A stretch of 64,000 bases of DNA from an uncultured Candidatus Saccharibacteria bacterium (GCA_964521955.1 CAZFTX010000003.1:1517-65516); one strand, 5' to 3'. Shown: positions 36,160 to 37,073, numbered from the stretch's first letter. The notes: a model not told the origin generated them from the letters alone. Program-made: numbers and translations.

Positions 36160-36215
36160 TTTATTTAGTTTAAATATTTATGCTTTATTATAACGAAATT
36201 TGAAAAAACTTGTTA

Positions 36216-36244
36216 TTGACAAAAAGTTAAAATTATGATTAAAT
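36216..36244 (+). promoter_or_regulatory. Promoter-like element TTGACA-17-TTAAAT (TG-extended) upstream of GC-rich island C
   Basis: TTGACA 36216-36221; 17-nt spacer ending in TGA; TTAAAT 36239-36244; then RBS AAGAGGA (36267-36274) and ATG at 36279. Confidence 0.45.
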
Positions 36245-36278
36245 ATACTGTTCGAATCAACTTCAGAAAGAGGAATTA

Positions 36279-36929
36279 ATGAGCTCAAACAATGTTGTAC
36301 TGCTACCCAGGATTGTACACATGGTTCCAAACCCCGAGTTCGGAAACGCTTGGCTAACGGTAAGGCACCGGTACTCTCAAGGCCACCCACCATGGCCAAT
36401 TCACGACCTGTACGCCGTTTCTGTTCCCAAAGATCACAAAGAAGGCGGAGTCGAAAGCGAGATCTTCCACGCATACGAAAACCCCATGACCAAAGCCTGC
36501 GCCGACAATGTTATCGCAACCAGGCTTTCAGACGGGACCCCGGCCGTGCTAGGCCTCAAGCGCAACAATCCGCCTTACAAAGGGACGTGGTACATGGCCG
36601 GCGGAGCCATGTTTGGCTACGATGATCCTGCGAATTTCCTGGCAACAAAATGTTGGAAAGAAACAGGTCACGCACTTGAACCCCAGGTTTATCTGGGAAC
36701 CTTCTTCAACCACGCCGAAGACTGGCCGGCAAGCGTTCTGGCTATTTGCTACGCAACCCTTGTCCCCATTGCAAACATTGAACAGACCAAGCCCGCCGAC
36801 GGCCACGACCAGTGGCGGCTCTTTACCGAAAAGAGCCTCAAAGAGATACCGGTAAATGAAACCCACTGGTACCCCATGCTGGTCTGGGAACACGTCCTTA
36901 AGACCATGTTCGACTTCAACATTCGCTGA
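36279..36929 (+). CDS. Hypothetical Nudix-fold-like protein (GC-rich island C), paralogous to 14088-14687 and 14890-15297
   Basis: 216 aa; GC-rich. 'GTWYMAGGAMFGYDDPANFLATKCWKETGHAL' aligns with the Nudix-box region of the native gene ('GWHIPGGLLRMNEDFKTRLGKVAKNELGAKL'). 'YLGTFFNHAEDWPASVLAICYATLV' aligns with 'KFLFPINYKKTPRGHDVSLVFFMHFV'. Own RBS and terminator. Confidence 0.5.
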   Translation: MSSNNVVLLPRIVHMVPNPEFGNAWLTVRHRYSQGHPPWPIHDLYAVSVPKDHKEGGVESEIFHAYENPMTKACADNVIATRLSDGTPAVLGLKRNNPPYKGTWYMAGGAMFGYDDPANFLATKCWKETGHALEPQVYLGTFFNHAEDWPASVLAICYATLVPIANIEQTKPADGHDQWRLFTEKSLKEIPVNETHWYPMLVWEHVLKTMFDFNIR

Positions 36930-36956
36930 CACCACTCACAAGTGGAAGCAACCACA

Positions 36957-36994
36957 CGGCGGGCGCGACTCTTTGCGCCCGCTGTTTTCTTTTG
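36957..36994 (+). terminator. GC-rich intrinsic terminator of island C
   Basis: cggcgggcgcgactctttgcgcccgctgttttctttt: 8-bp GC stem followed by a T-run. Confidence 0.65.
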
Positions 36995-37073
36995 GTAAAT
37001 TTCTCCTATTTAAGTTAAAATACAATAAATAAAAGGTTTTAAATTTTCGTCGTTTTTATTATTTTTGTCATTT

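What the first reader, a model, noticed from the sequence alone, without database searches (positions are those of the whole stretch)
36215..36995. Third GC-rich cassette (island C): a second GC-rich Nudix-like paralog in a divergent intergenic region with its own promoter, RBS and terminator
Between the divergently oriented CgeB-like gene and the GT4 gene lies a ~780-bp GC-rich unit. It has TTGACA-17-TTAAAT, AAGAGGA, ATG, a 216-aa ORF, and the terminator cggcgggcgcgactctttgcgcccgctgTTTT. The product aligns with the other two Nudix-like proteins ('GTWYMAGGAMFGYDDPANFLATKCWKETG', 'YLGTFFNHAEDWPASVLAICYATLV'). Islands A and C share fold but little sequence, which argues for independent acquisitions of the same function rather than a recent duplication.
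Basis: partly seen in the sequence, partly recalled or inferred. Interest (0 to 1): 0.7.

Follow-up and report, generated by a model that had tools for sequence, protein, structure and literature searches.

The report
Swappable GC-rich Nudix gene cassette

Summary
ORF 36279-36929 (216 aa) has 53% GC and GC3 0.62, against 37% and 0.30 for the host. It holds the highest-GC 650-nt stretch of the window. It has a promoter-like site, an RBS and a strong terminator.

- **Fold.** The protein is Nudix-fold. The AF2 model has pLDDT 88.7, and hhalign to a Nudix profile gives 99.6%.
- **Family.** It belongs to a rare family with no curated model: 49 clusters among 1.84 billion proteins. Named genome hits are all Patescibacteria MAGs. 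The gene nearly always lies beside SDR epimerase/dehydratase, sugar-dehydrogenase and GT4 genes.
- **Active site.** The Nudix box is degenerate, with only the last Glu kept. [quoted passage not shown]
- **Strain variation.** One 88-95%-identical relative has only 88 nt in this slot. A more distant syntenic relative has 148 nt. Another relative keeps the promoter and terminator at 87-90% identity but carries an ORF only 58% identical in nucleotides.

So this is a strain-variable, horizontally exchanged accessory gene of a surface-glycan locus. The sugar-nucleotide hydrolase activity is inferred, not shown. Island A is also Nudix-fold, but only at profile level.

The parts
36162..37072 (.). Whole variable slot ('island C'): everything between the start codons of the divergent CgeB-like GT gene and the GT4 gene
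   Evidence: In L130 (88-95% nt identical flanks) homology to the window ends at 36161 and resumes at 37073. Only 88 unrelated nt lie between. L047 has 148 nt there.
36216..36244 (+). Promoter-like site: TTGACA (36216-36221), 17-nt spacer ending in TGa, TTAAAT (36239-36244)
   Evidence: Read from the sequence. Not listed by the scan's stricter rule. The -35, TG and -10 are invariant in L129 while 5 of 17 spacer bases differ. Function is inferred.
36187..36216 (-). Back-to-back promoter-like site for the CgeB-like gene (ATAACA-18-TATAAT, 10 of 12 matches)
   Evidence: It lies inside the variable slot, so the island also supplies the neighbour's upstream region. Function is inferred.
36268..36274 (+). 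Shine-Dalgarno-like AAGAGGA, 4 nt before the ATG
36279..36929 (+). GC-rich ORF, 216 aa. A divergent Nudix-fold protein with a GDPMH-like residue set (Arg95, Gly108-Gly109, Glu128, Tyr158, His176)
36956..36995 (+). Intrinsic-terminator-like hairpin (13 bp, 9 G-C pairs) plus T run
   Evidence: Conserved in L129, where one G-U pair becomes A-U.
35089..36159 (-). Flanking gene: CgeB-like glycosyltransferase (PF13524)
   Evidence: It anchors the synteny in L047, L129, L130 and L128.
37074..38180 (+). Flanking gene: GT4 glycosyltransferase (PF00534/PF13439). The real start is ATG 37074
34012..35061 (-). SDR epimerase/dehydratase (PF01370, PF16363), which JGI calls CDP-paratose 2-epimerase. This is the gene type that accompanies the family elsewhere

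Best explanation
Island C is a horizontally acquired, strain-variable accessory gene of a surface-glycan (nucleotide-sugar and glycosyltransferase) locus in an AT-rich bacterium that is probably a member of the Patescibacteria (CPR).

The unit occupies the whole space between two divergently transcribed glycosyltransferase genes. It carries its own sigma-70-like promoter, RBS and intrinsic terminator.

Its product is a cytoplasmic Nudix-fold enzyme of a rare, uncurated family found so far mainly in Patescibacteria. The canonical Nudix box is reduced to one glutamate. [quoted passage not shown]

The most likely activity is Mg2+-dependent hydrolysis of a nucleotide-diphospho-sugar made by the neighbouring SDR and dehydrogenase enzymes. 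The expected products are NDP plus free sugar, from attack at the sugar C1 with His176 as general base. This would trim or redirect the precursor pool and so change which glycan the cell displays.

Within the species complex the slot is polymorphic: empty, occupied by this allele, or occupied by a roughly 53%-identical allele. The ORF has been exchanged by recombination inside the conserved promoter/terminator frame.

**Shown:** foreign composition, Nudix fold, family distribution and gene neighbourhood, presence/absence and allele replacement.

**Inferred:** promoter use, catalytic activity, substrate, direction of transfer and host phylum.
For: **Composition.** GC is 0.533 and GC3 is 0.62 against a host GC3 of 0.30 +/- 0.04.

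**Fold.**
- The AF2 model built on 34 homologues has pLDDT 88.7 and pTM 0.85.
- Foldseek's top PDB hits are GDPMH entries 2i8t, 2gt2 and 1rya, E 5e-8.
- The family profile matches PDB Nudix chains at E 7.7e-7.
- hhalign against a Nudix profile gives 99.6%.

**Catalytic residues.** hhalign of the family against GDPMH gives 91%, E 1e-6. The GDPMH sequence was verified as identical to 1rya. Aligned pairs, in 1rya/literature numbering, are:
- Arg95 with Arg37
- Glu128 with Glu70
- Tyr158 with Tyr103
- His176 ('PADGHDQWRLFT') with His124 ('PDEQHDDYRWLT')

Gly108, Glu128 and His176 are invariant across 34 members at 22-49% identity. Arg95 is nearly invariant. GDPMH gives GDP plus mannose, and a histidine is described as general base for sugar-nucleotide Nudix hydrolases (PMC7729866). 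GDPMH sits in the colanic-acid operon (PMC10037897).

**Neighbourhood.** In 7 of 7 Patescibacteria or unclassified MAG loci, and also in L003, L126 and the P0107 contig, the gene abuts SDR epimerase/GDP-mannose-dehydratase-type genes, UDP-Glc/GDP-Man dehydrogenase genes or GT1/GT4 genes.

**Variability.**
- L130 and L047 are empty sites.
- L129 carries a 53%-identical allele. The promoter region is 87% and the terminator region 90% nt identical, the flanking genes are 80-89% identical, but the ORF is 58% identical.
- That allele is closer to P0002 (62%) and P0004 (86%) than to the window's allele.
- GC-richness is not intrinsic to the family. P0006 has 33% GC in a host of about 36% GC.

**Reality of the junctions.** They recur in independent assemblies.
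Against: - No biochemical data exist for any family member.
- The first Nudix-box glutamate (GX5E) is Tyr114 or variable. The equivalent of GDPMH Arg52 is absent, and that of Arg65 is shifted by one position. The protein could therefore be inactive or use different chemistry.
- The best sequence-profile hit in the PDB is the non-catalytic NrtR Nudix domain.
- The window protein itself scores below Pfam's Nudix threshold (14 against 21.1 bits). Only 1 of 34 members touches NCBIfam's GDPMH model, at E 9.5e-4.
- No donor was found. The closest proteins are only 49-56% identical.
- The polarity of the empty sites (insertion or deletion) is not proven.
- No integrase, target-site duplication or flanking repeat explains how C moves.
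- The host phylum is inferred from relatives and gene content, not from a marker gene.
Confidence: 0.6

Rival explanations
1. The protein is a non-catalytic Nudix-fold ligand sensor or binder, like the Nudix domain of NrtR or AraR. It would bind a nucleotide-sugar or ADP-ribose-like metabolite and regulate the glycan pathway through protein contacts rather than by hydrolysis.
For: The best sequence-profile matches in the PDB are NrtR (3gz8/3gz5, E about 1e-6) and the related 2fml. AraR also appears. The Nudix box has lost all but one of its catalytic glutamates.
Against: There is no DNA-binding or other effector domain. The protein is 216 aa, with only a short family-specific N-terminal extension. 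An invariant His and Glu and a nearly invariant Arg sit at the GDPMH catalytic positions across members only 22-49% identical. That conservation is hard to explain for a mere binder.
Confidence: 0.17
2. It is a conventional Nudix pyrophosphatase that cleaves an NDP-sugar or another nucleoside diphosphate derivative at phosphorus, giving NMP plus sugar-1-phosphate. This would be a house-cleaning or flux-control enzyme.
For: The fold is Nudix. Many sugar-nucleotide Nudix enzymes work this way (PMC7729866). JGI named the closest homologue an ADP-ribose pyrophosphatase.
Against: The REUXEE glutamates that hold the metals for attack at phosphorus are missing (xRxxKE). The conserved His/Tyr/Arg set matches the one Nudix enzyme that attacks carbon.
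Confidence: 0.15
3. The gene is native and old. Its GC-richness and divergence come from local processes at a recombination hot spot, such as GC-biased gene conversion or long-term balancing selection on alleles, rather than from import out of a GC-richer donor.
For: Two alleles only 53% identical, both GC-rich, sit in a frame whose non-coding parts have diverged no more than the host genes. In most hosts the family gene is 3-11 points richer in GC than its surroundings.
Against: Close and more distant relatives have empty slots. An AT-rich family member exists in an AT-rich host. Two unrelated neighbouring cassettes, A and B, show the same GC excess. The crossover regions themselves remain AT-rich.
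Confidence: 0.07
4. Assembly or binning artefact: a GC-rich fragment from another organism was joined into an AT-rich contig.
For: The compositional step is abrupt.
Against: Identical junctions occur in separate assemblies of several runs. A 98.7% identical strain has the same left junction. The AT-rich promoter and terminator flanks are conserved with a different allele in L129.
Confidence: 0.01

Closest known systems
[quoted passage not shown]
   Different: Identity is only about 18-21%. NCBIfam's GDPMH model does not recognise the family. The GX5E glutamate is replaced by a nearly invariant Tyr. The equivalents of Arg52 and Arg65 are missing or shifted. There is an extra N-terminal segment of about 70 residues with its own conserved motifs (VPxG, YxxYRxG) and a C-terminal HWYP motif. 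The substrate is unknown, and the neighbours suggest CDP- or GDP-deoxyhexose chemistry.
NrtR / ADP-ribose-pyrophosphatase-like Nudix domains (PDB 3gz8, 3gz5, 2fml)
   Same: These are the best sequence-profile hits (E about 1e-6). The core 'VLL-KR ... W-PGG' is similar, and the catalytic box is degenerate.
   Different: There is no winged-helix DNA-binding domain. The conserved His and Glu are not features of NrtR. The gene context is glycan synthesis, not NAD metabolism.
Variable regions of O-antigen and capsule loci with atypical GC content
   Same: Accessory genes of deviating composition are inserted between conserved sugar-pathway genes. There is presence/absence and deep allelic divergence with sharp boundaries, plus recombination in conserved flanks.
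   Different: The deviation here is upward, a GC-rich gene in an AT-rich genome. The unit is a single gene with its own promoter and terminator. The host is a (probable) Patescibacterium whose glycans are uncharacterised.
Integron gene cassettes
   Same: Both are single-ORF units that differ between strains at one slot, with a hairpin at the 3' end.
   Different: The unit carries its own promoter. The 3' hairpin is a perfect G+C stem followed by a T run, which is a terminator shape rather than an attC shape. No flanking repeat was found. I did not screen the window for an integrase gene or for attI.

Membership tests
Nudix superfamily | Nudix alpha/beta/alpha sandwich fold | tested here: met
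Nudix superfamily | Nudix box GX5EX7REUXEEXGU | tested here: not met
   The window sequence reads G108-GAMFG-Y114-DDPANFL-A-T-K-C-W-K-E128-T-G130-H. The family consensus is GGAxxAY-x7-xRxxKECGV. Only the Gly residues and the last Glu are kept.
Nudix superfamily | Significant match to Pfam PF00293 or a Nudix profile | tested here: inconclusive
   The window protein scores 14 bits, E 0.052, below the 21.1-bit cut-off. Of 34 family members, 13 match, best 3.9e-9. The family profile matches PDB Nudix chains at 7.7e-7. hhalign to a Nudix alignment gives 99.6%, E 7e-24. Homology is therefore secure at family level only.
GDP-mannose mannosyl hydrolase (GDPMH) | Loop histidine acting as general base (His124), plus Glu70, Arg37 and Tyr103 | tested here: met
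   hhalign gives 91%, E 1e-6, and aligns His176, Glu128, Arg95 and Tyr158 to these positions. His176 and Glu128 are invariant and Arg95 nearly so. The roles of the GDPMH residues come from my own knowledge of Legler, Gabelli, Xia and Mildvan, supported in general terms by PMC7729866.
GDP-mannose mannosyl hydrolase (GDPMH) | Recognition by the curated equivalog model (NCBIfam PRK15434) and conservation of Arg52, Arg65 and the GX5E Glu | tested here: not met
   Only 1 of 34 members matches, at E 9.5e-4. The window protein does not match. Ala110 aligns to Arg52, Thr123 to Arg65, and Tyr114/Asp115 to the Asp-Glu pair.
GDP-mannose mannosyl hydrolase (GDPMH) | Cleavage of the C1-O bond, giving NDP plus free sugar | not testable with these tools
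   This needs an enzyme assay with product identification and 18O labelling.
Horizontally acquired genomic islet | Deviant composition plus presence/absence among close relatives | tested here: met
   GC3 is about 8 sd above the host. L130 (88-95% nt identity) and L047 are empty. L129 carries an alternative allele.
Horizontally acquired genomic islet | Identifiable donor or mobility machinery | tested here: not met
   The closest proteins are 49-56% identical. No flanking repeats were found for C. There were no viral-contig motif hits and no PHROG or PADLOC hits.
Integron cassette | attC recombination site and a promoterless ORF | not tested
   No attC model was run. By inspection the 3' hairpin is terminator-shaped and the unit has its own promoter-like site.

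The most novel reading that the evidence does not exclude
In these ultra-small bacteria the surface-glycan locus contains fixed, AT-rich 'expression frames', each a conserved promoter plus terminator. Unrelated or deeply divergent GC-rich ORFs are swapped into these frames by recombination: Nudix-type sugar-nucleotide hydrolases, EEP phosphoesterases and the unknown island-B protein. This would amount to a cassette-exchange system that diversifies the cell-surface glycan of episymbionts. The cassettes would circulate among Patescibacteria of different GC content. Alternatively, they would be kept GC-rich by biased gene conversion at the exchange hot spot.
Probability: 0.2. Interest if true: 0.7.

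Novelty: new variant of a known kind. Interest (0 to 1): 0.5.

Why it matters
Patescibacteria (CPR) live attached to other cells, and almost nothing is known about their surface glycans or how these vary.

- **A testable enzyme family.** The finding defines a small Nudix family that no database model covers. Its residue set copies the one Nudix enzyme known to attack sugar carbon instead of phosphorus. Its conserved gene neighbourhood also nominates candidate substrates.
- **Strain-level plasticity.** At the strain level a glycan locus of such an organism has slots that are empty, filled or refilled with very different alleles, while the promoter and terminator stay put. Surface-antigen loci under phage or host pressure in well-studied bacteria show this pattern. 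It has rarely been documented in CPR.
- **A scanning heuristic.** Sharp GC-rich single-gene islets in AT-rich CPR genomes were real HGT markers here, not assembly noise.

Tried and rejected
- **Locus retrieval.** The search for related loci with family alignments A2 and A3 failed because no stretch was conserved enough. I replaced it with a degenerate DNA motif scan (WW[MIV]xGG-x18-ECG) followed by an hmmsearch filter. That scan sees only part of the family, so the taxonomic picture is biased.
- **First structure model.** The AF2 model built from 2 sequences was useless (pLDDT 47.6). It was redone with 34 sequences.
- **afdb50 fold search.** The library was unavailable.
- **Intergenic alignment.** Aligning the L047 intergenic region with the island flanks was uninformative.
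- **Mobility signatures for C.** No flanking direct or inverted repeats beyond chance-level AT-rich matches turned up.
- **Phage or defence origin.** There were no motif hits in viral contigs and no PHROG or PADLOC matches.
- **Assembly chimera.** Rejected.
- **Family-intrinsic GC-richness.** Rejected because of the AT-rich member P0006.
- **Island A against single Nudix sequences.** These comparisons gave nothing. Only the profile-profile test against a 23-sequence Nudix alignment was significant.
- **Island B protein.** No Pfam or PDB relatives were found.
- **Run accessions in the literature.** The search found only that SRR32414321 comes from South African wastewater or river samples.

Full report
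**1. What is there**

The window is AT-rich, with 36.7% GC. Nearly all genes lie on the minus strand. It encodes a long sugar-nucleotide and glycosyltransferase locus:
- a DegT aminotransferase;
- many SDR epimerases/dehydratases;
- GT2 and GT4 glycosyltransferases and a CgeB-like glycosyltransferase;
- two Wzy_C-TPR proteins;
- pentose-phosphate enzymes and SAM synthetase.

Three short stretches stand out in GC:
- island A, about 14088-14768;
- island B, about 32875-33890;
- island C, the finding.

Island C holds ORF 36279-36929 (216 aa). Its GC is 0.533 and its GC3 is 0.62. The 48 other ORFs have GC3 0.30 +/- 0.04. The highest-GC 650-nt stretch of the whole window starts at 36332.

- TTGACA at 36216-36221, a 17-nt spacer ending in TGa, and TTAAAT at 36239-36244;
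- AAGAGGA 4 nt before the ATG;
- a 13-bp G+C-rich hairpin with a T run at 36956-36995, fold z-score -4.6.

Conservation in a relative supports the site (section 5).

The junctions recur in independent assemblies of four sequencing runs. The unit is therefore real.

**2. The protein is Nudix-fold and belongs to a rare, uncurated family**

On its own the protein barely touches Pfam NUDIX (E 0.052, below threshold). It has only one word-indexed homologue among 5.8 billion clusters (49% identity).

An exhaustive profile search of 1.84 billion representatives found 104 proteins at E<=1e-3 and 49 at E<=1e-10. An alignment of 34 members at 22-49% identity shows:
- invariant Pro50, Gly108, Glu128 and His176;
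- nearly invariant Asp76, Thr81, Arg95, Trp105, Gly109, Tyr114, Gly140 and Cys157.

Evidence that the family is Nudix:
- 13 of 34 members hit Pfam NUDIX, best 3.9e-9.
- The family profile hits PDB Nudix chains at 7.7e-7.
- hhalign against a classical Nudix alignment gives 99.6%, E 7e-24.
- No NCBIfam model covers the family.

With the 34-sequence alignment, AlphaFold gives a confident model (pLDDT 88.7, pTM 0.85). It shows a Nudix core plus a family-specific N-terminal segment of about 70 residues.

**3. How it most likely works**

The Nudix box is degenerate. It reads GGAxxAY-x7-xRxxKECG, so only the last glutamate of REUXEE survives.

- It is the top Foldseek hit (2i8t, 2gt2, 1rya; E 5e-8).

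hhalign of the family against it gives 91%, E 1e-6. In 1rya/literature numbering the aligned pairs are:
- Arg95 with Arg37;
- Glu128 with Glu70;
- Tyr158 with Tyr103;
- His176 with His124 ('PADGHDQWRLFT' against 'PDEQHDDYRWLT').

GDPMH is the exceptional Nudix enzyme that releases GDP plus free mannose by a dissociative mechanism. A histidine is described as general base for sugar-nucleotide Nudix hydrolases (PMC7729866). The specific residue roles are from my own knowledge of the Mildvan/Amzel work. GDPMH is encoded in the colanic-acid operon and is thought to control precursor flux (PMC10037897).

I therefore infer an NDP-sugar glycosyl hydrolase.

The differences from GDPMH are real:
- The GX5E glutamate is a conserved Tyr.
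- The Arg52 and Arg65 equivalents are missing or shifted.
- The family has extra N- and C-terminal motifs.

The family is thus not a GDPMH orthologue. A non-catalytic role or a classical pyrophosphatase role cannot be excluded.

**4. Gene neighbourhood and distribution**

A degenerate-motif scan of one genome per species, filtered by hmmsearch, found nine strong family members at E<1e-60. They come from these MAGs:
- Saccharibacteria (L011, L025, L031, L037);
- Lloydbacteria (L016);
- Taylorbacteria (L009);
- a 'Patescibacteria group' MAG (L019);
- an unclassified MAG (L023).

L003, fetched separately as the contig that encodes P0012, is a further strong member from an unnamed assembly. L037 is the same contig as L004.

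Weaker relatives occur in Bacteroidetes and in DPANN-type archaeal MAGs.

In all seven loci examined, and also in L003, L126 and the P0107 contig, the gene lies next to an SDR epimerase/GDP-mannose-dehydratase-type gene, a UDP-Glc/GDP-Man dehydrogenase or GT1/GT4 genes. In the window the same kind of SDR gene, which JGI calls CDP-paratose 2-epimerase, lies two genes away.

In most hosts the gene is 3-11 GC points above its surroundings. P0006, however, has 33% GC in a host of about 36% GC. GC-richness is therefore not a family constraint. In the window it marks foreign origin.

**5. Strain-level presence/absence and ORF replacement**

I searched for relatives of the flanking CgeB-like gene. 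The slot differs between relatives:

| Locus | Relation to the window | State of the slot |
|---|---|---|
| L047 | flanking proteins 60-78% aa identical, syntenic over nine genes | 148 nt between GT4 and the CgeB-like gene; the epimerase abuts GT2, so neither C nor B |
| L130 | 88-95% nt identical | 88 unrelated nt between the two start codons; homology breaks at 36161 and 37073; carries island B |
| L129 | about 84-87% nt identical | a family gene in the same slot; lacks island B |

In L129 the identity to the window varies sharply along the unit:
- flanking genes, 80-89% nt;
- promoter region, 87% nt;
- terminator and downstream region, 90% nt;
- the ORF, only 58% nt and 53% aa.

The breakpoints are sharp, near the RBS and about 25 nt before the stop. 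Only the two catalytic-motif patches inside the ORF stay above 80%.

The L129 allele is closer to the metagenomic proteins P0004 (86%) and P0002 (62%) than to the window's allele. The ORF was therefore replaced, or ancient alleles are maintained, inside a conserved expression frame.

In L129 the -35, the TG and the -10 are unchanged while 5 of 17 spacer bases differ. One terminator G-U pair becomes A-U. This is modest phylogenetic support for both signals.

The same slot holds other genes in more distant relatives:
- an EEP-family phosphoesterase gene in L128 and L050;
- a different GC-rich Nudix gene in L054.

**6.

Island A's protein has no Pfam hit. It shows no significant pairwise similarity to C.

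Its small family aligns with a classical Nudix profile at 94.7%, E 6e-8. Its box is reduced to R120...K124-E125. Its match to C's family is only 46.5%, and its match to GDPMH is 1%.

So A and C share a fold but not a close relationship. Equality of function is not established.

Island B encodes a protein with no detectable relatives in Pfam or the PDB.

**7. Verdict**

The object is a strain-variable, horizontally exchanged single-gene unit of a glycan locus. It encodes a new, GDPMH-like variant of the Nudix fold.

Neither horizontal transfer into glycan loci nor Nudix sugar-nucleotide hydrolases are new in kind. Three things are new:
- the family itself;
- its apparent restriction to ultra-small bacteria;
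- the ORF swap inside a conserved promoter/terminator frame.

The mechanism of exchange, the donor, the substrate and the reason the cassettes are GC-rich remain open.

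Noticed in passing
window 32807-33958 (island B: insert 32875-33890; ORF GTG 32978..33790): Island B is flanked by a 68-nt direct repeat (32807-32874 and 33891-33958, 94% identical). The repeat duplicates the 5' end of the adjacent GT2 gene. Relative L129 has a single copy of the 68 nt and no island, and L047 also lacks the island. This is the signature of a Campbell-type single crossover, or of precise loss by repeat recombination. The 270-aa product has no Pfam or PDB relative. 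Assemblers break contigs at this repeat: L001 and L042 both end at 33929.
   Followed up: partly
window 14088-14768 (-), island A: This is a GC-rich ORF (GC3 0.53; likely start ATG 14687, 199 aa) with only six homologues found. It is Nudix-fold at profile level (hhalign 94.7% to a Nudix alignment). Its box is degenerate, and an invariant His180-Arg181 lies near the C-terminus. A 22-nt inverted repeat (13845-13866 and 14801-14822, 91% complementary) brackets it. Homologue P0117 has an unrelated N-terminal half, which suggests a chimera or recombinant.
   Followed up: partly
window 14890-15297 (-): This is a host-composition (34% GC) small Nudix gene (PF00293, E 7e-6) right next to island A. Its box is KVAKNELG, again with only the last glutamate. 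The locus therefore holds three 'single-Glu' Nudix genes.
   Followed up: partly
L128:8241-9023, L050:1046-1843, L054:12-314, L049:230-661: In other relatives the slot between the CgeB-like and GT4 genes, or the position just upstream of the CgeB-like gene, carries other genes. L128 and L050 have an EEP-family (Exo_endo_phos) gene. L054 has a different GC-rich Nudix gene (0.55 against 0.40). L049 has a canonical small Nudix. A phosphoesterase-type accessory gene seems to be a recurrent occupant.
   Followed up: partly
window 34012-36159: The epimerase (GC3 0.45) and the CgeB-like gene (GC3 0.37) lie between islands B and C. They are themselves somewhat GC-enriched compared with the host median of 0.30. 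The whole 32.9-37.0 kb stretch may have a mixed recombination history.
   Followed up: no
window 45295-48768 (-) and 61924-63876 (-): These are two large ORFs (1157 and 650 aa) with no Pfam match and unusually high second-codon-position GC (0.52 and 0.55). The first coincides with the only stretch of positive GC skew in the window. They may be low-complexity surface proteins.
   Followed up: no
window 38166-40382 (-) and 42094-44304 (-): These are two paralogous Wzy_C (O-antigen-ligase-like) proteins of about 737 aa with C-terminal TPR repeats. An HlyD-like gene separates them.
   Followed up: no
L003 (GCA_037975565.1 contig JBBCBH010004184.1): This 57%-GC genome carries a family member inside a glycosylation cluster. 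Many of its sugar-pathway genes there look split into short adjacent ORFs, for example UDPG_MGDP_dh in pieces. That suggests frameshifts or a low-quality assembly.
   Followed up: no
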